Source: Pseudoalteromonas tetraodonis (lineage in GTDB: Bacteria > Pseudomonadota > Gammaproteobacteria > Enterobacterales > Alteromonadaceae). Taken from it: a stretch of DNA of 32,000 nt. This document shows, in pieces, positions 2,100 to 32,000 of this stretch; within the stretch, counting starts at the first letter, position 1; each line of letters opens with the position of its first letter. The notes under the pieces were generated by a model. The model saw nothing but the letters and a program-made list of their open reading frames with translations. It was not told the DNA's origin and ran no database searches. The stretch lies in the NCBI RefSeq assembly GCF_002310835.1, contig NZ_CP011041.1, forward strand, positions 1,950,001-1,982,000. The letters are read 5' to 3'. The position numbers and the translations under genes are program-made.

Positions 2100-2861
2100 A
2101 TGATGAGTGTAACTTACTTTGAAAACCAGCTAGAAATCACGCCCGCTTTAGCAAATAACAGCCATTGCATTGCGTTGCTTAACGCGACCACCCTCAATGT
2201 GGGTGAATTTGATTTACCCCACTATTTAAGCCCTTTTGAGCTCAATGTTATTAATCGGCGTAAAAATCCACAGGCTAAACAAGAATATTTAGCCACACGT
2301 TTAGTGCTTAAATACCTAGTAAAATCCGCTTGTTCTTCTTATGCATCATTAAAGCTGTGTGATATTAGTTCTGAATTTAACCCCGATAACAGTAAATTAG
2401 AATTACATATTAAAAATACAACAGGCGTGATCAGTTGCTGTATTTCTCATTCTCATGGTTTTGTAGGTGCAGCGTTAAATGTAGCATCAACTCAATTTGG
2501 CTTTGATATTGAAAAAATTAGTTTAAAGCGCCCTTTTAATAAACTCGCTAAACACTTTTACCACCCAGCCGAAGTGAGCTTAATAACCGATACAGATAAC
2601 ATAACAACTCAAGCACATCATTTCTTTAGGATTTGGACATTAAAAGAAGCGCTGGCTAAAGCCACCACCCGCCCTATTGCTCAGCTATTAAGCCCTAATG
2701 TGTTTAACGAACTTAATAACGCCCAGCTTACAGCCTGCAGCAATACCGTGGTTGGAGCACATAACGACATGTTTGATATTAGCGTTGTGGCAAAAAAAAG
2801 CACCGACTGGCGGTGCTCAATAATGACTATTAACGATTTACGCAGCGCAATCACTTTCTAG
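2100..2861 (+). CDS. 4'-phosphopantetheinyl transferase, Sfp/EntD type
   Basis: 253 aa. It carries FGFDIEKI (the GxD(I/V)E Mg2+ motif) and FFRIWTLKEALAKA (the W/FxxKEAxxKA motif) at the spacing typical of Sfp-type PPTases. Confidence 0.75.
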   Translation: MMSVTYFENQLEITPALANNSHCIALLNATTLNVGEFDLPHYLSPFELNVINRRKNPQAKQEYLATRLVLKYLVKSACSSYASLKLCDISSEFNPDNSKLELHIKNTTGVISCCISHSHGFVGAALNVASTQFGFDIEKISLKRPFNKLAKHFYHPAEVSLITDTDNITTQAHHFFRIWTLKEALAKATTRPIAQLLSPNVFNELNNAQLTACSNTVVGAHNDMFDISVVAKKSTDWRCSIMTINDLRSAITF

Positions 2862-4229
2862 TAATCGACTATGAATCGCTTGAACCACTGCATCAGACTC
2901 GCTTTGCTCAACTAAAAAGCACAAGTTATGTTTACTTGCACCATGGCAAATAAGTCTAATATTAAAATCACTTAATACTTTCATTAAATTCATTTCGTGC
3001 TGACGCAATACAATTTCAGACCCAATAAGTGCTACTAGGGTTAAATTGTTCTCAACCGATACATGGCAAAATTCAGCGAGTTTATCTAAGCACTCTTGAT
3101 CTAGCTCTGGGCGTGATGCATTAGGCGCATTATCAAGGGTAATTGCTACACTAATTTCAGAGGTGGTAACCAAGTCTACCGAAATATTGCACTCACTTAA
3201 AATAGTAAAGATACGTGCTAAAAAACCACTCGCTAATAACATTTCTGGGCTTTTAAGGGTTAATAATATTTGATTTTTACGTTGCGTTACCGCACGAATA
3301 CCAGGTAGCTGCGATTTTTCACGTTCAATCCACGTACCGCCAAGTTCTGGTTCTCGGCTAGAGCCAACAAACACATTTATATGGCTGCGACTGGCAGGCA
3401 AAATTGTAGCTGGGTGCAGCACTTTAGCGCCAAAGGTCGCCATTTCTGCTGCTTCATCAAAACTTAAACGCGCAATAGGAGTGGCTTTTACACACAAACG
3501 AGGATCGGTGCTAAAAATACCCACTACGTCAGTCCAAATATGCACACTTTTAGCGTTAATAGCCTCAGCAAGCAGTGCAGCACTATAATCTGAGCCGCCT
3601 CGACCGAGCGTGGTCGTTAAATTGTTTGCATCGCTACCAATAAACCCTTGGGTCACAATAACGCTATCATCAAGCAGCGGAATTAAATGTGTTTTAGCGG
3701 CTTGCGCTGTGGCGGCCACATTTGGTGTTGCTTTACCAAATTGGCTATCGGTTTTAAGCACCTGGCGCACATCAAAACGAGTGGCTTTTAAACCCTTTAA
3801 CCTTAGTACTTGAGTAAATAAGTAAGACGATAAACGCTCGCCAAAGCTAAGTAGCTCATCGAACTGCTGCTCAGTATTGAGTGTTTGTGCCGCCAACGTT
3901 TGAAATGCATCTAGCGTTTGATTAAACCCAATGGCTAAATCCTCATCTAACGACAGGTCATTTAAAATAGCCTGCTGAATCGCAAGGACACCATCAATAT
4001 GCTGTTGGCGTTTAGCGGCTTCAATACCCGCTTTGCAAAGCTCCACTAAATGATTGGTCACTCCGGCACTGGCGCTTACTGCAACAATACGTACATTTTT
4101 ATCGTTTACGATAATTTCGCTACAACGGCTCATCGCCTCAAAGTTAGCAACGCTGGTGCCACCAAATTTGGCAACAATGTAATCTGATTTTGTGCACTGT
4201 GAACTTTGTGGCACTGGTTGGGTAGTCAT
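2838..4229 (-). CDS. lysC: Aspartate kinase (lysine-sensitive type)
   Basis: IVAKFGGTSVANFEAM (the KFGGTS motif) opens an amino-acid kinase domain, and the C-terminal regulatory region is ACT-like. I place the start at ATG 4229 (MTTQPV...), preceded by AAGGAG 7 nt upstream. The 506-aa track ORF runs on through the riboswitch. Confidence 0.9.
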   Translation of the reverse strand: MTTQPVPQSSQCTKSDYIVAKFGGTSVANFEAMSRCSEIIVNDKNVRIVAVSASAGVTNHLVELCKAGIEAAKRQQHIDGVLAIQQAILNDLSLDEDLAIGFNQTLDAFQTLAAQTLNTEQQFDELLSFGERLSSYLFTQVLRLKGLKATRFDVRQVLKTDSQFGKATPNVAATAQAAKTHLIPLLDDSVIVTQGFIGSDANNLTTTLGRGGSDYSAALLAEAINAKSVHIWTDVVGIFSTDPRLCVKATPIARLSFDEAAEMATFGAKVLHPATILPASRSHINVFVGSSREPELGGTWIEREKSQLPGIRAVTQRKNQILLTLKSPEMLLASGFLARIFTILSECNISVDLVTTSEISVAITLDNAPNASRPELDQECLDKLAEFCHVSVENNLTLVALIGSEIVLRQHEMNLMKVLSDFNIRLICHGASKHNLCFLVEQSESDAVVQAIHSRLLESDCAA

Positions 4230-4309
4230 TTCGTCTCCTTTCGCGGCATCCAAACCGCAATAAAACAAGAAGAACTTGGCAGGAAATAAAGATAAGAAAA
4301 ATCTACTGC

Positions 4310-4472
4310 CAGAAGCTCTCCACCTAAATTGGTGACAGTTTTGAGGATTCAGCCCCATAAACCGAAAAACAATGGTAACGACCCATTATTTTCCTCGGCG
4401 AGTACTTCCCTCCTTAATGATCGCAGGCTGTCGTTGCCTCACATTAAGTACCTAAGTATCGCACCTCTTCTG
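4310..4472 (-). promoter_or_regulatory. Lysine riboswitch (L-box) in the lysC leader
   Basis: The minus strand reads CAGAAGAGGUGCGAUAC...GGGAAGUACUCGCCGAGG...AUGGGGCUGAAUCC...CUGUCACCA...GGUGGAGAGCUUCUGG. P1 is CAGAAG/CUUCUG. The AGAGGUGCG, AGUA, GCCGAGG, GGGGCUGAAUCC, UGUCACC and GGUGGAG blocks match L-box conserved blocks as I remember them from the E. coli and B. subtilis lysC leaders. Confidence 0.85.
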
Positions 4473-4494
4473 AATGTATTATTAACCTGTGGCT

Positions 4495-4575: not shown

Positions 4576-5823
4576 TCAAATAAAACTACCCATTAAGTAA
4601 GAGCCCGCATAACCAAAGGTGTAACACAGTAATAAATACAGCGATAAGCGAAGGTAACTTGCAAACGTCAGCTCTTTTACCTTACTCATGGCTATAATAC
4701 CGGCCGCCGAGCCAATGATTAGCATAGAGCCACCTACACCGGTTGCATACGTAAACGACAACCAATGCTGTTGACTCATTACAATGTCGGCTTTTAATAA
4801 CGCTGCCGTTAGTGGCACGTTATCAACACCTGCGGATAAAATACCCATTAAGTAGTTTGCGTACTCTGGCGCCATTACCGTATACAAATTAGTAAATTGG
4901 CTCAGTACCCCAACTTCTTTTAATGCACCAACAAGCAGTAACACACCCACGAAAAACAATAAGGTGTCGTACTCTATATCGCGTATAAAATCGATCATAT
5001 CTTTGTTGATGTCTTTTTTGCGCATTAAAAATTGCGCGACTAAAAACATAATAGATAAACCCAATAAAAAAGTAAGCAGAGGCGGTACACTGTATAAAAC
5101 ACTCAATGTAAGCGTAGCAATAACCGTAGTGAAGAAAATAACCGCAATGGTTATGTCGGTTTTTTCAATACGTTTAAATTTAGTTTTTTTAAACTCGAGT
5201 TGCTTATTCATGCCAATTGATAACAAAGTAGCCAGTAATAATACACTTAATAACGCAGGCACAATTAACAGTAATAAATTGCTAATTGTTACTTTACCAT
5301 CAAGGAAAATCATAAGTGTGGTTACATCACCCGTGATAAGTGATACACCACCGGAGTTTACAGCAAATACAATAAGCGTGGCGTACTTAACTAGTTTTTT
5401 GGCTTCAAGCTTTAATGACATAATCACTGCCAGTGATATTAGCGTGGCCGTAACGTTGTCGGAAATAGATGAAAATAAAAACGCAAAACACCCCACCAAA
5501 AACATCAGCTTACGCTCACTAATGCTGGTTGGCATAATCCGGTTCACAACATTTTCGATAAGTCCTTTAGAGTTTAAATAGGCGACAAAGGTCATTGCGG
5601 CCATTAAAAACAGCCATAAAGAAGCAATTTCTAAAATATTGTGGTCTAGGAGGGTTTGAATCGTTTCGGGGCTTTGCCCATTAAGAGGAAAAATAAAGGA
5701 GATAATCCAACAAAGTGTACCAAAAAATAATGTCGTTTTTGCTTTGTTTACGTGGATCACATCCTCAATAACGATAAGCAAAAATGCAATCGCTATCAGC
5801 GTCAGGATAATCGAGGAAACCAT
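4576..5823 (-). CDS. Ion transporter of the ArsB/NhaD permease superfamily (putative NhaD-type Na+/H+ antiporter)
   Basis: ~415 aa with about 11-12 predicted TM helices and two-fold repeat architecture. Its length and composition fit NhaD/CitMHS-like permeases. The ATG at 5823 (MVSSIIL) is preferred over the TTG at 5835, which directly abuts the GAAGG Shine-Dalgarno. Confidence 0.55.
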   Translation of the reverse strand: MVSSIILTLIAIAFLLIVIEDVIHVNKAKTTLFFGTLCWIISFIFPLNGQSPETIQTLLDHNILEIASLWLFLMAAMTFVAYLNSKGLIENVVNRIMPTSISERKLMFLVGCFAFLFSSISDNVTATLISLAVIMSLKLEAKKLVKYATLIVFAVNSGGVSLITGDVTTLMIFLDGKVTISNLLLLIVPALLSVLLLATLLSIGMNKQLEFKKTKFKRIEKTDITIAVIFFTTVIATLTLSVLYSVPPLLTFLLGLSIMFLVAQFLMRKKDINKDMIDFIRDIEYDTLLFFVGVLLLVGALKEVGVLSQFTNLYTVMAPEYANYLMGILSAGVDNVPLTAALLKADIVMSQQHWLSFTYATGVGGSMLIIGSAAGIIAMSKVKELTFASYLRLSLYLLLCYTFGYAGSYLMGSFI

Positions 5824-6019
5824 GATATTAAACAACCTTCGGGGTTAAGTAAAAATTGAAACCATGTAAAAAATATACCCACAAACTCTATGTGCCTATA
5901 TTCGGCGCGGATACTATCACTAAGCGGGTGTAAAAACTATTATTAAATCGTCGCAAAAACGAATACCATATAAGTTCGAGAAATATAAAATAACGAATAC
6001 TAGGAAGTTGCAACGCCTT

Positions 6020-7291
6020 ATGATCCCAGCTAAAAAGCTACTTAATACCCTAAATGAACACTGGGGTGTATTAGAGCTATTATTTAAGCGCTTTAAAATG
6101 GCCGACTTTAGTATTAAAGATCTTCAAAATGCCATTAAGCAAAAGCAACCCACGTGGAATAATGAGCGTATTTATAAAGAAACCAACCGGTTATTAAATC
6201 AAGAAATTATTATTCCGCTGGCTAAATCGTCACAACTGGAAATTAACCGCGCCGTTGCCGACTTTGCCACCTTTTTACTGCAAGAAGAACATTTAGGCTT
6301 AGCACAAGAAATTAGTGTCTTGGTTGATGATTTGGCCCGTTTAGGTAATCGGCTATCTAATGCCGGTGAAATGGAAGATTTTGATGATTTACGCCGCTTT
6401 AGCCGTATTATGGATGATCGGGTGCGTAAAATAATCAAACTGTTTTTACACAACGAAAACGCCATTTTAAATATTGTTGAGCAAGCCAAATCTAATAATG
6501 CAGTGCAGTCGCTACAAAAACGCTATAAAGCCGTGATAGAAGCGTTTGATGAATATATAGAACCCATGCTGGAAATGGTGGATATTAGAGGCGACTTTCA
6601 TGCCTGCTTTACCCTTATTGAGCAACAAATTAGCACCCAAATAGAACATATTGAACGTTCAGGCAAAGCGTACAACGATAAACGCATGCTTGAACAATTG
6701 CGTACCCGCATTCTAGAAATGCACCTAGTTGGCCGGATAAGCTTACGTAAAAGTGCCGATATGTTAATGCCACTGCGTGAAGAGTTGCGCCGTAATAACC
6801 TTGTTACCCGCCAAGTAGCAAAAGTATTAGGGCTAATACGTAAAAATGGGGTAGATAATATGCTCAGCGCCGTGCAGCCACATTTTGTAAGCGATGCGCA
6901 AAAGTATTCATTGGGTCAACAGCGCCATATAGTAGCCTACATGGCAAGCCTGGCTGAATTTGAGCATCATGAATATCAGCTACCAGAGCAAAACGATGTG
7001 CCTGCGTTTGTCACACCAAACATTCCTGACTATCACGATGTAAAAGCGCAGTTTGCAAAACGCTTCAAAAAGCAGCGTAAAAAACCACAGCCTCTGCTGC
7101 AATTTTTAGACGAAAGCTATCCAGAGCTTGAAGCCGATGAAATGCTGTTTTTGTATCAAAAACTAGTGAGCGATACCACCCTACACATTAGCCAAAGCGA
7201 TAAAAAAGCCCGCGTTAACATTGCAGGCCAGCACTTTTCTTTGTACCCCTTTAATTCAGAGCCTCAGGCTGATAAAGCCGAGCACGAGTAA
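6020..7291 (+). CDS. MukF/MksF/JetA-like kleisin candidate (first gene of an SMC-like operon)
   Basis: ~423 aa, helical and acidic/basic mixed, with a KKQRKKPQ linker ahead of a C-terminal globular part. Its position and size match mukF (440 aa) and jetA. Its stop overlaps the next start (TAATG at 7289-7293). The assignment rests on context and architecture, not on a motif I can name. Confidence 0.55.
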   Translation: MIPAKKLLNTLNEHWGVLELLFKRFKMADFSIKDLQNAIKQKQPTWNNERIYKETNRLLNQEIIIPLAKSSQLEINRAVADFATFLLQEEHLGLAQEISVLVDDLARLGNRLSNAGEMEDFDDLRRFSRIMDDRVRKIIKLFLHNENAILNIVEQAKSNNAVQSLQKRYKAVIEAFDEYIEPMLEMVDIRGDFHACFTLIEQQISTQIEHIERSGKAYNDKRMLEQLRTRILEMHLVGRISLRKSADMLMPLREELRRNNLVTRQVAKVLGLIRKNGVDNMLSAVQPHFVSDAQKYSLGQQRHIVAYMASLAEFEHHEYQLPEQNDVPAFVTPNIPDYHDVKAQFAKRFKKQRKKPQPLLQFLDESYPELEADEMLFLYQKLVSDTTLHISQSDKKARVNIAGQHFSLYPFNSEPQADKAEHE

Positions 7292-7845
7292 TGACCATGA
7301 CACAGATAAACTTAAATGAGCTTTCTCACTTACAAGCCATTCATAAAAAATTAGTCGCGGGTTACCACATTTGCGAACAAGACACCCTAATGTGGCAAGA
7401 GCTTGACCAACAAATTGAAGCTTACAGCGCCTTATTCACAGCATTAGGCCATGATTTAAAGCACGACAGTCGTGGCTTTTATTATTTTGCTAGCGATGAA
7501 AGCACCCCCAATATGGGCAAAATATCGCGCGCGATAGCGCTCACTATTTATATTTTAATCGAACACTTTGCCAACACAGGTAAAGACCCAATGCGTGCAT
7601 TATTTGATGAGCCAAACGATTTAGAGCTAATGCAAACCTTGGTACAACTTAATAAACATTTATTTGATCAGCTTGAAATATTCTCGGGTTCTGATTTACG
7701 CAAAGATGTGTATTTACGCATGGTGCGTTTAGGCCTTGCCCGCGAAGTGGAAGGCGGCTTTATGCTACAGGCGCCAATTCATCGCTATATTGATGCCTTA
7801 ATGGAAGTAAATGAAGAAACCTTTTTAGGAGAGGACGAGGAATGA
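7291..7845 (+). CDS. MukE/MksE/JetB-like small subunit candidate
   Basis: 184 aa, acidic. The segment W-x2-L...I..Y...FTALGHDL..DSRGFYYFASDE resembles the DUF4194/JetB pattern (iGLeL..de.eGyAfL). It is coupled to both neighbours by overlaps (TAATG upstream, ATGA downstream). Confidence 0.55.
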   Translation: MTMTQINLNELSHLQAIHKKLVAGYHICEQDTLMWQELDQQIEAYSALFTALGHDLKHDSRGFYYFASDESTPNMGKISRAIALTIYILIEHFANTGKDPMRALFDEPNDLELMQTLVQLNKHLFDQLEIFSGSDLRKDVYLRMVRLGLAREVEGGFMLQAPIHRYIDALMEVNEETFLGEDEE

Positions 7846-10634
7846 AAAACTTATACGGACTGAGTAAACTCGCCCTACTTAATACTGCAGGCTATGCAAA
7901 GTGTGTGATCCCACTTGATAAAAGTAGCTCGATTTGTGCGCCTAACAACACAGGTAAAAGCTCAGTTATTAATGCACTGCAATTTCCGCTAATTAACGAT
8001 TTACGCCTTACCGAGTGGGATGGCCACGATTTAGATGAAACCCGTAAGTTTTATTTTTCATCAGATCAATCGTACATTTTATTGCAAGCCGATTTACCCC
8101 ATGGCTCAGTTGTCATTGGCGTAGCAGGCTTAGGTAAAATTGCCGGTTATGCACACCAATACTTTTGCTATCAAGGCAAACTTGATTTAGCCCAGTACAC
8201 CCAAGGCAATACCATTATTAAGTTTACCAAGCTGTTTAATCACTTAAAGCAGCAAGGTTACAACCCGATAGAGCTTAAAGCGCAAGAGTTAAACGCCCTA
8301 CTTACTGGCGGTGCAACGCAATTTGATGGTGAGATCAATTTAAAAATGATCCCCCTTAACAACGTTCAAGACTCTGCAATATACAAAGAAATATTTCGTC
8401 GTATTCTTAATTTACATAAATTAGGCGCAAACGACGTTAAGCGCTTTATGTTACGTGTGTTTGAACGCCACATGTCAAATTCAAAGGTCGACTTTTACGA
8501 AGTATGGCGCCGGTCGTTTGATAAAGTAAACCGCGCAAAACGTGAATTAAAAGCCCTTGAGTCAATGCAAGAGCCCATAGCCGCCCTTGAATCTATGCTT
8601 GAAAACCAAACCGTTCTTAAAGGTAAACTGGCTGCTTATGCACCAAAAATTGACCAAGCACTGATTGATTTTGATACGTATCAGGAAGAGCAACTAAGCG
8701 AACTCAACATCGCTCTTGAAGATATTGAGCACGAAAAACACGAGTTTGAACAAAAACAAAGCCTATACGTTCAACAATCACGCGATATAGAGCGCAAACA
8801 AACCCAAATTGAACAGTGGTTTTTAGATTACAACGCCCTTAAAAGTGAATTTGAGCTAGTTAATAAAGCCACGCTCAAAACCAGCTTAACGCAGTTAAAA
8901 AATGACTACGAGTCGTTGTCACACTCAATAACGAGTGCACAAGGTCAAAGCCTGCACACCCTTGATTACCGCATTGGCGAAACACAAAAACAAATTAAAA
9001 GCTTAAAGTTACAACTTAAAAACTTAGAATTTAATTTATTCACTCGAATGCGTGAAGACTTATCACTGAAAGAAGTTGAAGAAATATCGCGACTATTAAA
9101 CCCCGATCTTCTCTCCTTTGCTACCACCAGCAATGGCGATATCACCATTGATGATGACGACGCTTTCGGGGAATTTTTAGCACAGCTCAGCGAAAACGTA
9201 AAAGGCGGTGTACTCACCCTGCCCGGTGCCAGTATTAAACTTAAAAAACTCTCGCCTGTGCAAATGCAAAGCGGCGAAAACAAAGAGCAACTGAGTGCTC
9301 AATTAACCGCACTTGAGCAATCATTAAAAGAGTTTAAACAACAGCGTGAAGTGGCCGCCAATGTTGCAGATAAGCAAAAAGAAAAAGACGCGCTATACGA
9401 TGAGCTTATGAGTGCTGAAAGTGCACTTAAACGCTTAGAGCAATTTGAAGTGATGCAACAATCGGTTGACGCCCAAGCAATGCTAAAAGAGCAGCTTTTA
9501 GCCGAACGCGAACAAGTTGACGACTACCTGCAAGATATTCAAAAAAACAGTGGCTCAATTGCTGATAGACGCTCGTTAATTAAATCAAAACAAGCGCAAA
9601 TTAATCGTCAAACAGAGCGCTTACGCCAAGTTAAAACCGAGCGTATTGACCACACGTTAGATTTATACAGTGGTAAAGTAACGCCTTACATGATTGATAT
9701 AAAAATCGATTTTGATAATTTAAGCGATTTAATTCACCACTTTAATAAAGACTGCCAAGAGCTACGTAATTTCGATATAAATGTACGTAATACTTATATG
9801 CATATTTACAATGCAGGTATTACCAAGTTCGATAACGAAAACGATGAGTTTAGTAAATACCAAAAACTTATTAGCGCGTTTCATAATATTGATAACGAGC
9901 GTGATGCTGTTGAGCGCCAAGGTCGCGTTGCTCTCACCGAAGTGGCCGCCACGATTAAAGGCTTACGTGAAGATTTAGACCGCTTACGCCGTGAAATGAA
10001 TAGCTTTAATAAAGGCATAAGCCAGCATCGTATTTCAAACCTGCAAGCGTTTAAAATTAATATTATCCCGCGCAAAATGTTGGTAGATAGCATTGATACT
10101 ATTATCAGTACCTCTAACCAAATTGAACAAGGCGACACCCTGGATTTACTCAGCCAAGAGCCGTACAGCGAAAGTGCGGTAAACGACGCAAAAGATCATT
10201 TAATTAAACTCGCCTCAGACAAAGCAGGCCTGACCCTTACCGATTTATTTGATATTCGTTTTGAAGTGGTTAACCGCGCGGGCGAAACCGAGCACTTTGA
10301 AAAAATAGATTCGGCTGGTTCAAATGGTACGCGTATCACCATTAAGCTGTTATGTGGCATGTTGTTTATTCGTTACTTATTAAGCGATCAGGAACAAAAC
10401 TTATACCGTATACCTATTTACATAGATGAAGCGGCTGATATCGACCCGCAAAACCAAAAAGCAATTATTGAAACCGCCTTGAGCTTTGGCTTTGTGCCAA
10501 TATTTGCCTCAGTTAAACCGCAAATAAGTTGTGATTATATTGTGCCAATTCGTTCAGTAAAAGACGGCGCACAAAACTGGGTAGATGAAAAAGATTGGAT
10601 TGAGGTTGAACATAAAGCCTCTCTACTGGACTAA
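7842..10634 (+). CDS. MukB/MksB/JetC-like SMC-family ATPase
   Basis: 930 aa. The N-terminal LSKLALLNTAGYAKCVIPLDKSSSICAPNNTGKSSVINALQFPLINDL aligns with E. coli MukB [49 protein letters not shown] (Walker A). The C-terminal DSAGSNGTRITIKLLCGMLF...RIPIYIDEAADIDPQNQKAII...FVPIFASVKPQIS aligns with MukB [20 protein letters not shown]...[20 protein letters not shown]...MQLIIAAPENIS (signature-like motif, Walker B DE, D-loop). About 550 aa of heptad-rich E/K/Q/L sequence lie between the heads, with a non-coiled insert near aa 410-485. Confidence 0.85.
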   Translation: MKNLYGLSKLALLNTAGYAKCVIPLDKSSSICAPNNTGKSSVINALQFPLINDLRLTEWDGHDLDETRKFYFSSDQSYILLQADLPHGSVVIGVAGLGKIAGYAHQYFCYQGKLDLAQYTQGNTIIKFTKLFNHLKQQGYNPIELKAQELNALLTGGATQFDGEINLKMIPLNNVQDSAIYKEIFRRILNLHKLGANDVKRFMLRVFERHMSNSKVDFYEVWRRSFDKVNRAKRELKALESMQEPIAALESMLENQTVLKGKLAAYAPKIDQALIDFDTYQEEQLSELNIALEDIEHEKHEFEQKQSLYVQQSRDIERKQTQIEQWFLDYNALKSEFELVNKATLKTSLTQLKNDYESLSHSITSAQGQSLHTLDYRIGETQKQIKSLKLQLKNLEFNLFTRMREDLSLKEVEEISRLLNPDLLSFATTSNGDITIDDDDAFGEFLAQLSENVKGGVLTLPGASIKLKKLSPVQMQSGENKEQLSAQLTALEQSLKEFKQQREVAANVADKQKEKDALYDELMSAESALKRLEQFEVMQQSVDAQAMLKEQLLAEREQVDDYLQDIQKNSGSIADRRSLIKSKQAQINRQTERLRQVKTERIDHTLDLYSGKVTPYMIDIKIDFDNLSDLIHHFNKDCQELRNFDINVRNTYMHIYNAGITKFDNENDEFSKYQKLISAFHNIDNERDAVERQGRVALTEVAATIKGLREDLDRLRREMNSFNKGISQHRISNLQAFKINIIPRKMLVDSIDTIISTSNQIEQGDTLDLLSQEPYSESAVNDAKDHLIKLASDKAGLTLTDLFDIRFEVVNRAGETEHFEKIDSAGSNGTRITIKLLCGMLFIRYLLSDQEQNLYRIPIYIDEAADIDPQNQKAIIETALSFGFVPIFASVKPQISCDYIVPIRSVKDGAQNWVDEKDWIEVEHKASLLD

Positions 10635-10738
10635 GAGTTAATTGGCTATTCATCTTAGCCAGTTACACTTATTTTTAGATTTTAAATTACCCTCGCCCAT
10701 GGTAGTTTAAACAAACGCACTTTATTGGAGCAAACGGT

Positions 10739-11290
10739 ATGAAACATATATTTATTGTCGCAGCACTGGCGCTACTTACCGCCTGTACACAAACGCCCGA
10801 TTGGGATTACGATAAATCAGCAAACTTTAGTAACTACAAAACGTTTGCTTGGGTAGAAAACGCGAGCCTAACTAAAGACACGAATAACTACCAAATCAGT
10901 GGCCTTATGGAAAAACGCGTTCGCAATGCGGTAAACAACCAACTAAGCCAACAATTAGGTATGCAATTGGTTGACGTAGCGCAAGCTGATGTACTTGTTA
11001 ACTACCATGCAAGTGTAGATAAAGAGCTTGAAGTTGATAGCTTTAACGTAGGCTACGGTGCACGTTGGGGTTACTGGGACACAGGCTTTAACCACGATGT
11101 AAGCGCACGCGAATATGAAGTAGGCACGTTAGTTATCGATATTATTAATCGTGAGTCAAACCAATTAATTTGGCGTGGTGCTAAAGATGGCCGTTTAAAG
11201 AAAAAACAAACACCATCACAACGTGAAGCCGCTATTAAAGAAACGGTTGCCAATATTTTAAGCAACTTTCCGCCTAAAGTGCAGCAATAA
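10739..11290 (+). CDS. Lipoprotein, DUF4136-like
   Basis: The signal peptide has the lipobox LLTAC. It is 183 aa, and its size and pattern (ADVLVNYH..., LVIDIINRESNQLIWRG) are typical of DUF4136 outer-membrane lipoproteins. A GGAG Shine-Dalgarno lies 9 nt upstream. Confidence 0.7.
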   Translation: MKHIFIVAALALLTACTQTPDWDYDKSANFSNYKTFAWVENASLTKDTNNYQISGLMEKRVRNAVNNQLSQQLGMQLVDVAQADVLVNYHASVDKELEVDSFNVGYGARWGYWDTGFNHDVSAREYEVGTLVIDIINRESNQLIWRGAKDGRLKKKQTPSQREAAIKETVANILSNFPPKVQQ

Positions 11291-11307
11291 ACTTTAATTA
11301 ATATTTG

Positions 11308-11335
11308 AAAGCCCGCATGTTTGCGGGCTTTTTTG
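11308..11335 (+). terminator. Rho-independent terminator after the DUF4136 gene
   Basis: aaagcccgca-tgtt-tgcgggcttt followed by a T-run. Confidence 0.85.
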
Positions 11336-11354
11336 TGAGAAAAGGAATTTTTCG

Positions 11355-12167
11355 GTGACATTTAAAAAGCTCCTAACCCTTAGCTTATTTTTACCCCTGC
11401 TTTGTGCGTTCCATGCGTACGGCACTCAACTACAGTTAAAGCCTGGTATATGGCAAGGAATTTATAAAGATCATTTTGAGTACAATGTACTGGAAATTAA
11501 AGAAAACGGAGAACACCGTTTAATAATAGCAAGTATCGCCAATGCATTTTATAGAAATAAATCAATTGCGTTTAGCAATAATGATATCAAATGCAGTCGC
11601 ATTAATTGCACTATCAAACTTGTTAGCCCTAATAAAGAACATCTGCAATTCACATTGATTTTAAGCCCCTTTTTAGATAATTCATTCGAGGTGTTAGAAA
11701 TTTATTCTAATGCAGACGATAATTTTGTAATGTCAAAAACGTACCGATTGGAAGAACAAAAAGGGCAATCTACCGTTCGTACATTTATAGGTAAATACCG
11801 CTCTAAAATAGATGAGTTAGCTGCTATAGAAAAGACGGGCCTACATGGTTTTTGGGTAGGATTATTAAATTTAGACGGCAAGCAAGAACTAGCAAGTATT
11901 GAATTTCACCCCAATAAAAAGTCGTATTTCAATTATTTTACAAATGGGACCAATGACATAATTAGCACCTCTTTTATGCCACAAGATATTCAAGAAAAAG
12001 AGAGGATATTGGAAATAACCACCAGCCATCCACTTTTCGCAAATAAGCTAATTATTCATAAAGACAACCGAGAACTTAAAGGCTATATGTACTCAAACCA
12101 CAAAGGCACAACACTTCAAACTGGCTCGTTCAAATTATATCGTTTTGAAAGGCCTGAGTACCCTTAA
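11355..12167 (+). CDS. Hypothetical secreted protein (no recognisable family)
   Basis: GTG start with AAAGGAA 7 nt upstream. It has a clear signal peptide (MTFKKLLTLSLFLPLLCAFHAYG/TQ). I recognise no motifs. It is much more AT-rich than its neighbours. Confidence 0.6.
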   Translation: MTFKKLLTLSLFLPLLCAFHAYGTQLQLKPGIWQGIYKDHFEYNVLEIKENGEHRLIIASIANAFYRNKSIAFSNNDIKCSRINCTIKLVSPNKEHLQFTLILSPFLDNSFEVLEIYSNADDNFVMSKTYRLEEQKGQSTVRTFIGKYRSKIDELAAIEKTGLHGFWVGLLNLDGKQELASIEFHPNKKSYFNYFTNGTNDIISTSFMPQDIQEKERILEITTSHPLFANKLIIHKDNRELKGYMYSNHKGTTLQTGSFKLYRFERPEYP

Positions 12168-30496: not shown

Positions 30497-30589
30497 CTTT
30501 TTACAACCTATGTATTTTTTAGTTAGCTAGATTTTATCTAAAACTCATGTAATAGTCAGGAAAGCTTATAAAAAAGCTTCGATTATTTT

Positions 30590-30855
30590 AGGGTCTGTTG
30601 ACCTTTGCGGATTAAAATTTGTTCAAACTAGGAGCGATTTAATCGTGGCGCGAGGTTTGTAACCTAGTGGGCTAAGTAAAAACCGAGCAACAAAGAGTAA
30701 ATCGCCCCTAGGCAGAACCCTTCGGGCAGCGCCTGTTTGGCATTGATGCTGAGTTATCGCCTATTTATGGGGAACAACCACACCACATAGGCTCTGCCTT
30801 GCCTAAATACCAAACAGACTGCTGCAAATTTAACCTTGAAAGATCAACAGACCCT
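30590..30855. other. ~266-nt element bounded by ~30-nt imperfect terminal inverted repeats with nested internal stems (candidate structured RNA or MITE-like insertion)
   Basis: agggtctgttgacctttgcggattaaaattt (30590-30620) is complementary to aaatttaaccttgaaagatcaacagaccct (30826-30855): the outer 12 nt are perfect, then the match continues with a mismatch and bulges. Inside, ctaggagcgattta (30628-30641) pairs with taaatcgcccctag (30698-30711), and gcagcgcctgtttgg (30726-30740) pairs with ccaaacagactgctgc (30810-30825). Confidence 0.5.
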
Positions 30856-31064
30856 CATAATAATAACAGATAGTCTTTGCATTTAGCCATCTATACATTT
30901 AAACTTCTTTTTTTGCGCCGATTTGGTCTTTGGCTTGCGGGCGCTGTTGGATTACTTATCTGGTTAGATAGTAAAACAAACAACTAAATTCAGCTAAAAG
31001 AGGGATGCTTTGGCTGTTTAATATATCAATCGACTTCGATTGCTATGAATAATTAACGAGGATT

Positions 31065-32000
31065 ATGATGCAGCCATCATTTGATAAAAATAAAGCAAGA
31101 TTTTCTTTGCTTCCCCTACTCACCTTTGTTGCTATTTTTTTAGGCTCAGGCTTATATTTACAATCTCAAGGGGTTGATTACGCGTTTTATCAACTCCCAG
31201 CACCAGTCGCTATTTTACCCGCGATTGTTTTAGCCTTTATTTTAAATAAAACCAACATCAACCAAAGCGTAGAAACCTTTATAAAGGGCGTAGGTAATAA
31301 CAATATTATTACCATGTGTCTTATTTACTTACTAGCGGGTGCTTTTTCGGCGGTTGCTGGTGCTACCGGCGGTGTAGATGCGGTTGTTAATGCCGGACTT
31401 TCACTTATTCCCCCTTCGTTACTACTACCTGGTTTGTTTTTAATAGCGGCGGTTATTTCTACTGCTATGGGCACATCAATGGGAACTATTGGTGCTATTG
31501 GCCCAATTGCCTATGCAGTATCTATTAAAACAGGAATTGATCCTGCTTTAATGGCCGGTACCATTGTATCTGGTGCTATGTTTGGTGATAACTTATCAAT
31601 AATTTCTGACACCACGATTGCTGCTACGCGTACGCAAGGCTGTGAAATGAAAGATAAGTTTAAAGAAAACCTTAAAATTGCTGTTCCGGCCGCCATACTC
31701 ACTATTGCATTGCTATTATTTTTAACGCCTGCAGCACAAGTAGTTGATACCAAAGACTACGATATTTTATTAGTACTTCCTTATGCCTTTATTTTAGTCC
31801 TGGCGGTAATGGGCTTTAATGTGTTTGTAGTGCTGTTAAGCGGTATTGTGTTTGCCGCATTAATGGGCTTTACCGGCAGCTATGAAGGTGCAAGCTTTGT
31901 AAAAGATATTTACAAAGGCTTTAGTGAAATGCAGGAAATATTTTTACTGTCTATGTTTATTGGTGGCCTCTCTGAGTTTATTCGTATTAATGGCGGCCTC
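31065..32000 (+). CDS. NhaC-family Na+/H+ antiporter-like transporter, N-terminal 312 codons (3' end outside window; absent from the ORF track)
   Basis: I translated it by hand from ATG 31065, which has a GAGGA Shine-Dalgarno 4 nt upstream. It reads MMQPSFDKNKARFSLLPLLTFVAIFLGSG...AVISTAMGTSMGTIGAIGPIAYAV...GAMFGDNLSIISDTTIAATRTQG... and stays open to base 32000. The MGTSxGT and SDTT blocks are typical of the NhaC family. Confidence 0.8.
   Translation, partial: MMQPSFDKNKARFSLLPLLTFVAIFLGSGLYLQSQGVDYAFYQLPAPVAILPAIVLAFILNKTNINQSVETFIKGVGNNNIITMCLIYLLAGAFSAVAGATGGVDAVVNAGLSLIPPSLLLPGLFLIAAVISTAMGTSMGTIGAIGPIAYAVSIKTGIDPALMAGTIVSGAMFGDNLSIISDTTIAATRTQGCEMKDKFKENLKIAVPAAILTIALLLFLTPAAQVVDTKDYDILLVLPYAFILVLAVMGFNVFVVLLSGIVFAALMGFTGSYEGASFVKDIYKGFSEMQEIFLLSMFIGGLSEFIRINGGL

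What the first reader, a model, noticed from the sequence alone, without database searches (positions are those of the whole stretch)
6020..10634. Translationally coupled MukFEB/MksFEB (Wadjet JetABC-like) SMC operon with no JetD/MksG nuclease gene
Seen in the sequence: three same-strand ORFs (~423, 184 and 930 aa) are joined by overlapping stop/start signals (TAATG at 7289-7293, ATGA at 7842-7845). The third product aligns by eye with both head halves of E. coli MukB (Walker A region; signature-like motif, Walker B DEA and D-loop), separated by a long coiled coil. The order large helical protein, small acidic protein, SMC matches mukF-mukE-mukB and jetA-jetB-jetC. The next gene, 104 nt downstream, is a DUF4136-type lipoprotein with its own terminator. 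Nothing Toprim/DUF2220-like occurs anywhere in the window. Established knowledge: Wadjet (JetABCD) restricts plasmids by SMC loop extrusion, with the JetD/MksG Toprim nuclease doing the cleavage. MksBEF without MksG has been studied as an accessory condensin, for example in Pseudomonas aeruginosa. Alteromonadales normally carry canonical MukBEF as well. Inference: this is a second, compact Muk-like complex. It could be an accessory condensin, a DNA-sensing module whose effector is encoded elsewhere, or a complex that acts without cleavage. The family is not new, but the nuclease-less compact variant in a housekeeping context is the most system-like and least characterised item in the window.
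Basis: partly seen in the sequence, partly recalled or inferred. Interest (0 to 1): 0.72.

Follow-up and report, generated by a model that had tools for sequence, protein, structure and literature searches.

The report
Nuclease-less MksBEF condensin operon in Pseudoalteromonas
These three overlapping genes encode a conserved MksBEF-type SMC (DNA-organising motor) complex in Pseudoalteromonas that has no nuclease partner; this kind is already known from Pseudomonas aeruginosa, so it is a clear but fairly ordinary example, and its distant relatives still carry a DNA-cutting fourth gene.

Summary
Three same-strand genes (423, 184 and 930 aa) overlap at TAATG and ATGA. They encode a MukF-fold kleisin (MksF), an acidic KITE subunit (MksE, a small kleisin-binding partner; Pfam PF21980) and a MukB-like SMC ATPase (MksB). 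No Toprim/JetD gene lies in the window or within 5-10 kb in any close relative.

The source is Pseudoalteromonas. The trio is a core gene set: MksB is 70-100% identical across the genus, dN/dS is about 0.03-0.05, and the upstream gene order is kept in Rheinheimera and Algicola.

Pseudoalteromonas carries Smc-ScpAB, not MukBEF, so the setting matches P. aeruginosa (Smc-ScpAB plus MksBEF). "Compact" is also the family norm, at about 890-955 aa.

There is new context. The wider family is normally a four-gene system. All 33 metagenome loci at ≤32% identity carry a roughly 290-aa DUF7281/JetD_C-like Toprim gene after mksB, and 0 of 45 loci at ≥54% identity do. The three-gene loci form one clade (100/100 bootstrap).

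Best reading: a domesticated, nuclease-less Mks complex acting as an accessory chromosomal condensin.

Novelty: new member of a known kind. Interest is modest.

The parts
5836..6019 (+). Intergenic region shared with the divergent CitMHS transporter gene; presumed promoter and 5'UTR of the operon, with AGGA at 6003-6006 as a possible ribosome-binding site
   Evidence: Sequence. The consensus scan found no sigma-70-like site in this stretch, so the promoter is unassigned.
6020..7291 (+). mksF: kleisin subunit, 423 aa. N-terminal winged-helix domain, helical bundle, disordered linker (about residues 286-332), C-terminal winged-helix-like domain
   Evidence: NCBIfam NF040857 2.4e-62 over the full length. 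Precomputed Pfam PF28010. AlphaFold2 model pLDDT 74. The top 11 Foldseek PDB hits are all MukF, best 9gm7_C at E=8e-6 over the full length. No sequence-level match to MukF or to the PDB.
7291..7845 (+). mksE: acidic KITE subunit, 184 aa (alternative start 7297); start overlaps the mksF stop (TAATG)
   Evidence: Pfam PF21980 MksE 5.1e-39. NCBIfam NF040858 8.7e-37. pI 4.81. Overlap read.
7842..10634 (+). mksB: SMC-like ABC ATPase, 930 aa; start overlaps the mksE stop (ATGA). Split head, two antiparallel helical arms of about 190 and 245 residues, small hinge-like domain
   Evidence: NCBIfam NF040859 4.7e-166, residues 3-920 against model positions 4-922 of 926. AlphaFold2 model pLDDT 70. The top 7 Foldseek PDB hits are MukB at 8.5e-18 to 1.7e-11, followed by JetC, Rad50 and Smc5/6. 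hhalign to E. coli MukB heads.
7938..7961 (+). Walker A (P-loop) codons, residues 33-40, APNNTGKS
   Evidence: N35, G38 and K39 are invariant across 129 family members. The whole stretch is invariant within the clade.
9066..9281 (+). Hinge-like central domain, residues about 409-480 (low model confidence); no CxxC zinc hook
   Evidence: Secondary structure and pLDDT. Sequence.
10311..10331 (+). Signature-like motif, residues 824-830, SAGSNGT
   Evidence: S827 is invariant and N828, G829 and T830 are nearly invariant family-wide. It aligns with the MukB signature region.
10413..10445 (+). Walker B and D-loop, residues 858-868, PIYIDEAADID
   Evidence: D862 is invariant; E863 and D868 are nearly invariant. 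It aligns with MukB [11 protein letters not shown].
10639..10675 (+). Terminator-like hairpin plus T-rich tail, starting 5 nt after the mksB stop; marks the 3' end of the three-gene unit
   Evidence: 10-bp stem with only 3 G-C pairs. The number of such sites in the region is not above the shuffle expectation, so this is weak evidence.

Best explanation
The locus encodes a three-subunit MksBEF complex. MksB is an SMC-like ATPase dimer, MksF is a MukF-fold kleisin that bridges the heads, and MksE is the KITE subunit bound to the kleisin. It has no nuclease subunit.

It belongs to a vertically inherited clade found in Pseudoalteromonas, Algicola, Rheinheimera, Catenovulum, Saccharobesus and Algibacillus. 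This clade descends from a four-gene, Wadjet-like MksBEF-plus-Toprim-nuclease family and lost the nuclease gene once, at its base.

Shown here: the subunit identities and folds, intact and conserved ATPase motifs, strong purifying selection, conserved chromosomal gene order, absence of the nuclease gene, and monophyly of the three-gene loci.

Inferred, by analogy with P. aeruginosa MksBEF, which also coexists with Smc-ScpAB: the complex binds chromosomal DNA, uses ATP-driven head engagement to bridge DNA or extrude loops, and acts as an accessory or backup condensin for chromosome organisation and segregation without cutting DNA.
For: Family assignment: full-length NCBIfam Mks hits for all three proteins, Pfam MksE, and precomputed PF28010/PF21980/PF28007 in every relative examined.

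Folds: MukF for ORF1; MukB ahead of JetC and Rad50 for ORF3. Profile alignments to both MukB head halves.

ATPase residues are invariant across 129 family members.

Core-gene behaviour: 70-100% identity across the genus; dN/dS 0.03-0.05 at dS above 1; aspartokinase-CitMHS-mksFEB gene order kept in three genera; only housekeeping neighbours.

No nuclease: no hit in the window or in close relatives' loci; 0 of 45 metagenome loci at ≥54% identity have the fourth gene, against 33 of 33 at ≤32%. The three-gene clade is monophyletic at 100/100 bootstrap, and a four-gene lineage is its sister in the first NJ tree.

Setting: the genus has Smc-ScpAB (PMC7858055).

Function of the analogue: P. aeruginosa MksBEF lacks JetD and contributes to chromosome organisation and segregation (PMC10586767; bioRxiv 10.1101/2020.05.18.101659; bioRxiv 10.1101/2025.03.10.642339).
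Against: There are no functional data for this clade.

All three proteins score far below the NCBIfam equivalog cut-offs (211 against 750, 127 against 400, 554 against 1900). It is therefore a different subfamily from the one the models were built on.

The sampled representative closest to that model (P0285, 1005 bits) does not group robustly with the window's clade (29/100), so transferring function from Pseudomonas is by analogy only.

The sister lineages look like defence systems.

Only ±10 kb was searched for the nuclease, not the whole genome.

The structure models have moderate confidence (pLDDT 70-74), and it is low around Walker A and the hinge.

No promoter was identified.
Confidence: 0.75

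Rival explanations
1. The complex is still an immune sensor. It recognises small circular or foreign DNA by loop extrusion, as Wadjet does, then either silences or sequesters it without cleavage, or recruits an effector encoded elsewhere in the genome.
For: All more distant family members examined keep a JetD_C/DUF7281 Toprim gene. Many sit beside defence or mobile genes such as BrxR, Mu transposase, a PIN toxin-antitoxin pair, a Gabija-like ATPase plus UvrD helicase, or on plasmids. The ATPase motifs are intact.
Against: The clade behaves as a core housekeeping locus. It has conserved gene order across genera, very low dN/dS, large cluster sizes and no defence neighbours. No fourth gene or remnant lies within 5-10 kb in 45 or more loci. 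The loss is ancient and clade-wide, which is hard to reconcile with an effector kept in trans.
Confidence: 0.15
2. One reading: a second, compact Muk-like complex operating alongside canonical MukBEF in an Alteromonadales genome.
For: ORF1 and ORF3 are structurally closest to MukF and MukB. Reviews state that Mks systems can coexist with MukBEF (PMC4255302).
Against: Pseudoalteromonas is reported to have SMC, ScpA and ScpB, with no E. coli homologues (PMC7858055). A scan for the invariant MukB motif [10 protein letters not shown], written with the TTT codons this genome prefers, returned 120 loci from enterics, Pasteurellaceae, Vibrionaceae, Orbaceae and Aeromonas, and none from Alteromonadales.
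Confidence: 0.04
3. ORF3 is a repair-type SMC-like ATPase (SbcC/Rad50, RecN or RecF-like), and ORF1 and ORF2 are unrelated accessory proteins.
For: Rad50 and Smc5/6 chains appear among the significant Foldseek hits. Weak LmuB and Rad50-type coiled-coil hits appear in PADLOC and NCBIfam.
Against: MukB and JetC rank above Rad50. ORF1 has a full-length MukF kleisin fold and ORF2 is MksE. There is no SbcD/Mre11 gene nearby and no CxxC zinc hook in the central domain (sequence).
Confidence: 0.02

Closest known systems
Pseudomonas aeruginosa MksBEF (Petrushenko et al. 2011; Lioy et al. 2020)
   Same: Three-gene mksF-mksE-mksB system with no MksG/JetD. The SMC-like subunit is about 930 aa with short coiled coils. 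It coexists with Smc-ScpAB and is chromosomal. The same NCBIfam and Pfam Mks families match over the full length.
   Different: All three proteins score far below the equivalog cut-offs. The representative closest to the NCBIfam model does not group robustly with the window's clade, so nuclease loss may have been independent. The host has two chromosomes (PMC7858055). This clade has not been studied experimentally. That the NCBIfam models derive from Pseudomonas is my inference; it was not checked.
Wadjet / JetABCD (also called MksBEFG or EptABCD), types I-III
   Same: Kleisin, KITE and SMC-like ATPase gene order and overall architecture. JetC is the second-best structural match after MukB. 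Distant relatives of the window's operon carry a JetD_C-like Toprim fourth gene.
   Different: No nuclease gene is present. PADLOC JetA and JetB models do not match, and JetC matches only partially at 7.6e-10. The context is housekeeping and the genes are inherited as core genes, not sporadically in defence islands.
Escherichia coli MukBEF
   Same: Best structural matches for both the kleisin (MukF) and the ATPase (MukB). Both head halves align by profile. Gene order is F-E-B with overlapping genes.
   Different: MukB is 1486 aa with long arms and a larger hinge. The Pfam scan returned no family at all for ORF3, so no MukB domain matched. MukF is not detectable by sequence. The host lineage uses Smc-ScpAB and shows no canonical MukB motif.
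Four-gene Mks-plus-DUF7281 systems, for example on Polaromonas naphthalenivorans plasmid pPNAP02 and Pseudomonas amygdali megaplasmid pMPPla107, and in many metagenome contigs
   Same: Same Pfam and NCBIfam Mks families and the same protein sizes. These are the evolutionary outgroups of the window's clade.
   Different: They carry a 278-316 aa fourth gene at the 3' end of mksB, with invariant E-N and D-Y-D Toprim-type motifs. They lie on plasmids or in defence and mobile contexts. They are rare and sporadic, in clusters of 1-5 members.

Membership tests
MksBEF condensin (nuclease-less, P. aeruginosa type) | Operon of kleisin (MksF), KITE (MksE) and SMC-like ATPase (MksB) genes | tested here: met
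MksBEF condensin (nuclease-less, P. aeruginosa type) | SMC-like subunit markedly shorter than MukB or Smc, with short coiled coils | tested here: met
   930 aa, with helical arms of about 190 and 245 residues. Nearly all full-length members among the 150 listed representatives are 890-955 aa. Literature statement in PMC4255302.
MksBEF condensin (nuclease-less, P. aeruginosa type) | No MksG/JetD nuclease gene in or next to the operon | tested here: met
   The whole genome was not searched.
MksBEF condensin (nuclease-less, P. aeruginosa type) | Scores above the NCBIfam equivalog cut-offs (NF040857, NF040858, NF040859) | tested here: not met
   211 against 750, 127 against 400 and 554 against 1900 bits. 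It is homologous over the full length but belongs to a different subfamily.
MksBEF condensin (nuclease-less, P. aeruginosa type) | Coexists with a primary condensin (Smc-ScpAB) | tested here: met
   From the literature for the genus (PMC7858055). Not verified in this particular genome.
MksBEF condensin (nuclease-less, P. aeruginosa type) | Contributes to chromosome organisation and segregation | not testable with these tools
   Requires genetics and Hi-C.
Wadjet / JetABCD (MksBEFG) | Toprim nuclease JetD/MksG encoded with the SMC module | tested here: not met
Wadjet / JetABCD (MksBEFG) | JetA (DUF3375), JetB (DUF4194) and JetC profile matches | tested here: not met
   Pfam and PADLOC give no JetA hit, JetB2 at 0.013 and JetC1 at 7.6e-10 over part of the coiled coil only. 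UniRef labels some ORF1 homologues as DUF3375.
Wadjet / JetABCD (MksBEFG) | Sporadic distribution, in defence islands or on mobile elements | tested here: not met
   Core-gene distribution with conserved gene order.
MukBEF | MukB of about 1480 aa with Pfam MukB N-terminal and hinge domains; MukF and MukE families | tested here: not met
   The Pfam scan returned no family for ORF3. No sequence match to MukF. Only fold-level and head-motif similarity.
MukBEF | Occurs in the lineage that replaced Smc-ScpAB (together with MatP, SeqA and Dam) | tested here: not met
   The genus has Smc-ScpAB. None of the 120 MukB-motif loci is from Alteromonadales. MatP, SeqA and Dam were not tested.
SbcC/Rad50-type repair ATPases | Zinc-hook CxxC at the coiled-coil apex and an adjacent SbcD/Mre11 nuclease gene | tested here: not met
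   No CxxC in residues 400-480. No SbcD/Mre11 gene among the neighbours.

The most novel reading that the evidence does not exclude
The Alteromonadales mksFEB clade is an independent domestication of a four-gene, Wadjet-like family that has so far gone uncatalogued. That family's nuclease is a compact DUF7281/JetD_C Toprim protein, PADLOC 2023 does not recognise the family, and RefSeq annotates its genes as hypothetical. On this reading, the step 'lose the nuclease, become a core condensin' has happened more than once in Gammaproteobacteria. This clade and its four-gene sisters would then be a natural matched pair for testing what converts a plasmid-restriction motor into a chromosome organiser, possibly with a specialised role in a genus that maintains a chromosome plus a chromid.
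Probability: 0.3. Interest if true: 0.55.

Novelty: new member of a known kind. Interest (0 to 1): 0.35.

Why it matters
Taken alone, the locus adds a well-conserved member to the known class of nuclease-less MksBEF condensins, in a marine genus with two chromosomes.

Its wider value is comparative. Within one sequence family there is a clean split between a monophyletic, core-gene, three-gene clade and sporadic four-gene relatives that carry a Toprim nuclease and sit on plasmids or in defence islands. This gives direct comparative support to the published hypothesis that Mks and Muk condensins arose by domestication of Wadjet-type immune systems through loss of the nuclease.

It also suggests an experiment: add the sister lineage's fourth gene back to a Pseudoalteromonas strain and test whether plasmid restriction returns.

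Tried and rejected
- Sequence and profile searches of ORF1, ORF2 and ORF3 (shallow profile) against PDB chains gave nothing meaningful. Only the deep 129-sequence profile reached MukB, amid coiled-coil noise.
- hhalign of the ORF1 profile against E. coli MukF found nothing; only the fold comparison showed the relationship.
- Petrushenko 2011 and Rybenkov 2014 could not be read. Full-text searches for MukBEF or MukB with Alteromonadales or Pseudoalteromonas were uninformative.
- The 129-sequence alignment was too divergent for the search for related loci and too large for an alignment-wide NCBIfam scan.
- A profile of the fourth-gene proteins found no JetD or MksG chain in the PDB. Its Toprim assignment therefore rests on the Pfam JetD_C/DUF7281 and PADLOC JetD hits plus the conserved motifs.
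- A second homologue search seeded with the Rheinheimera protein did not reach beyond the clade.
- Cluster look-ups gave almost no taxonomy for the four-gene outgroups.
- I could not obtain the P. aeruginosa PA4684-PA4686 sequences, so their position relative to this clade is inferred only through NCBIfam scores.
- The SbcC/RecN-type reading and the 'beside MukBEF' reading were considered and rejected (see rival explanations).

Full report
OBSERVATION. The three + strand ORFs exist as described: 6020-7291 (423 aa; a TTG at 6008 would add four residues), 7291-7845 (184 aa) and 7842-10634 (930 aa). The junctions TAATG (7289-7293) and ATGA (7842-7845) were read directly. The next gene starts 104 nt downstream. 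It is a DUF4136 lipoprotein (3e-43) with a textbook terminator at 11308-11334. A weaker hairpin with a T-rich tail starts 5 nt after the ORF3 stop. The rest of the window holds ordinary housekeeping genes: aspartokinase behind a lysine riboswitch, a CitMHS transporter, PMSR, a TonB-dependent receptor, an RND pump, a DLH hydrolase, LysR, a nitroreductase, an LD-carboxypeptidase, GreA, CarAB and DapB.

WHAT THE PROTEINS ARE. NCBIfam gives full-length matches to the three 'Mks condensin complex' models: 2.4e-62, 8.7e-37 and 4.7e-166, the last covering residues 3-920 against model positions 4-922 of 926. All three scores lie far below the equivalog cut-offs. Pfam gives MksE (PF21980, 5e-39) for ORF2, and the precomputed newer Pfam families PF28010 and PF28007 cover ORF1 and ORF3. 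NCBIfam and Pfam call the kleisin 'MksB' and the ATPase 'MksF', which is the reverse of the literature, where MksB is the SMC-like ATPase, MksF the kleisin and MksE the KITE subunit (PMC10123090).

PADLOC finds no JetA, a negligible JetB hit and only a partial coiled-coil JetC hit. Sequence searches of the PDB were empty, so I tested folds instead. The AlphaFold2 model of ORF1 (pLDDT 74) has an N-terminal winged-helix domain, a helical bundle, a disordered linker and a C-terminal winged-helix-like domain. Its 11 best PDB matches are all MukF, and the best covers the full length (E=8e-6). The model of ORF3 (pLDDT 70) has split heads, arms of about 190 and 245 residues and a small central domain. 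Its seven best matches are MukB (8.5e-18 to 1.7e-11), followed by JetC, Rad50 and Smc5/6.

Profile comparison aligns the N-terminal head half to MukB residues 8-111 (E=2e-4). With a 129-sequence profile, the C-terminal head half aligns to MukB 1206-1439, including the signature-like motif, Walker B and the D-loop (95.7% probability, E=1e-8). Walker A N35/G38/K39, S827 and D862 are invariant across the family, and E863 is nearly so. ORF2 is acidic (pI 4.8).

ORGANISM AND CONSERVATION. The exact ORF3 protein occurs in Pseudoalteromonas issachenkonii/tetraodonis-group genomes and in many marine metagenomes. MksB is 70-100% identical across the genus and about 60-63% identical in Algicola and Rheinheimera. 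MksF homologues at 43-47% identity occur in Rheinheimera, Catenovulum, Saccharobesus and Algibacillus. The upstream gene order aspartokinase-CitMHS-mksFEB is kept in Pseudoalteromonas, Rheinheimera and Algicola, while the downstream genes vary. dN/dS is 0.03-0.05 at dS above 1 for all three genes. This is the behaviour of a core gene, not of a defence island.

WHICH OTHER CONDENSIN IS PRESENT. I scanned one genome per species for the invariant MukB motif [10 protein letters not shown], written with the TTT codons this genome uses 89% of the time. All came from Enterobacterales in the strict sense, Pasteurellaceae, Vibrionaceae, Orbaceae or Aeromonas, and none from Alteromonadales. Independently, Xie et al. 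[quoted passage not shown] The setting is therefore Smc-ScpAB plus MksBEF, the same as in P. aeruginosa, where MksBEF lacks JetD and contributes to chromosome organisation and segregation.

THE WIDER FAMILY. An exhaustive HMM search of 1.84 billion cluster representatives found 572 relatives at E≤1e-3 and 222 at E≤1e-30. Nearly all the listed full-length members are 890-955 aa, so 'compact' is the family norm. All 20 sampled representatives match NF040859 over their full length, and none of the 10 scanned with PADLOC matches JetC over its full length.

The neighbourhoods divide sharply. The relative at 44% identity (P0283) has three genes in a housekeeping context. Relatives at 20-31% identity carry a fourth gene of 278-292 aa abutting or overlapping mksB. 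It matches DUF7281, in one case JetD_C above Pfam's gathering score, and the C-terminal Toprim region of PADLOC JetD1. Its invariant residues include E-N and D-Y-D motifs. These loci lie beside BrxR, a Mu transposase, a PIN toxin-antitoxin pair or a Gabija-like ATPase-plus-UvrD pair. Others lie on plasmids (Polaromonas pPNAP02, Pseudomonas megaplasmids), where RefSeq annotates all four genes as hypothetical and PADLOC does not recognise the set.

A metagenome survey made this systematic. None of the 45 loci at ≥54% identity has the fourth gene within ±5 kb, and all 33 loci at ≤32% identity have it at the 3' end of mksB. tblastn and an HMM of the fourth gene find nothing, not even a remnant, in the window or in close relatives' loci. 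In NJ trees of MksB the three-gene loci form one clade (100/100 bootstrap), and a four-gene lineage is its sister in the first tree. P0285, the representative nearest the NCBIfam model (1005 bits), also lacks the fourth gene but does not group robustly with this clade (29/100). Nuclease loss may therefore have occurred more than once.

MECHANISM. Shown here: a kleisin, KITE and SMC-like ATPase complex with intact ATPase motifs, under strong constraint, with no nuclease. Inferred: MksB dimerises at the small hinge. MksF bridges the heads, and its MukF-like N-terminal domain probably joins two complexes. MksE binds the central part of MksF. ATP-driven head engagement then bridges DNA or extrudes loops on the chromosome, giving an accessory or backup condensin beside Smc-ScpAB. 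The main rival is a nuclease-independent or trans-effector immune role. It is disfavoured by the core-gene behaviour and the ancient clade-wide loss, but it cannot be excluded without a whole-genome search and genetics.

COMPARISON AND VERDICT. The system works like P. aeruginosa MksBEF and is a full-length homologue of the same NCBIfam and Pfam families, but in a distinct subfamily because the equivalog cut-offs are not met. It is not a Wadjet system, because there is no nuclease, the Jet profiles do not match and the context is not defence-like. It is not MukBEF either, given its size, the lack of any MukB domain match and its host lineage. It is a new member of a known kind. The domestication hypothesis it illustrates is already published. 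What this analysis adds is the clean split between three-gene and four-gene members within one family, and the observation that the four-gene relatives seem to be uncatalogued.

Noticed in passing
window 4305-4477 (- strand): Lysine riboswitch (RF00168, 97 bits) directly upstream of the aspartokinase gene. The mechanical 506-aa ORF (2838-4358) overlaps it, so the true start is the internal ATG that gives 463 aa, as several assemblies call it.
   Followed up: partly
L132, L134, L137-L139, L187-L219; plasmid loci L220 (NC_008758.1, 850-6525) and L221 (NZ_CP031226.1): Distant relatives form a four-gene system: MksF, MksE, MksB and a 278-316 aa DUF7281/JetD_C-like protein with invariant E-N and D-Y-D Toprim-type motifs. 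They lie on plasmids or beside defence and mobile genes. RefSeq annotates all four genes as hypothetical, PADLOC 2023 does not call the set Wadjet, and no paper in the library mentions DUF7281. This may be an uncatalogued Wadjet-like type.
   Followed up: partly
NCBIfam NF040857/NF040859 and Pfam PF28010/PF28007, as applied to window 6020-7291 and 7842-10634: These databases name the roughly 412-aa kleisin 'MksB' and the roughly 926-aa SMC-like ATPase 'MksF'. This is the reverse of the published nomenclature (MksB is the ATPase, MksF the kleisin) and will propagate confusing annotations.
   Followed up: yes
L222 6357-11174 and L223: In the lineage closest to the NCBIfam MksB-type model (P0285), mksE and mksB lie downstream of O-antigen/Wzy genes with no kleisin gene upstream. 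A separate SNase-family nuclease gene lies about 590 nt downstream. Either the kleisin is encoded elsewhere or the system is degenerate.
   Followed up: no
L011 14290-19272 (Saccharobesus litoralis CP026604.1): A phage-type integrase and a type V (Cas12a) CRISPR-Cas locus are inserted immediately downstream of mksB, so the 3' flank of the operon serves as an integration site in that genome.
   Followed up: no
window 11355-12167 (+ strand): A 270-aa ORF with a signal-peptide-like N-terminus and no Pfam match. It is present in some strains and replaced by short 98-99 aa genes in others, so it is a strain-variable spot between the DUF4136 and PMSR genes.
   Followed up: no
L139 273-3814: An AAA_15/AAA_21 ATPase and a UvrD-type helicase (a Gabija-like pair) lie directly upstream of a four-gene Mks system, with RNase H-like, DEAD/MZB helicase and LexA genes downstream. 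This is a typical defence island.
   Followed up: no
window 11308-11334 (+ strand): A canonical intrinsic terminator (GCCCGCA-TGTT-TGCGGGC followed by TTTTTT) after the DUF4136 gene was not listed by the consensus terminator scan of 5700-11500, so that scan's negatives should not be trusted.
   Followed up: partly
window 30497-32000: About 550 nt with no ORF of 50 aa or more, containing a 30-nt inverted repeat (30590-30619 and 30826-30855, 80% complementary). It is followed by a membrane-transporter-like ORF in an open frame from 31053 that runs off the window end. No Rfam match.
   Followed up: no
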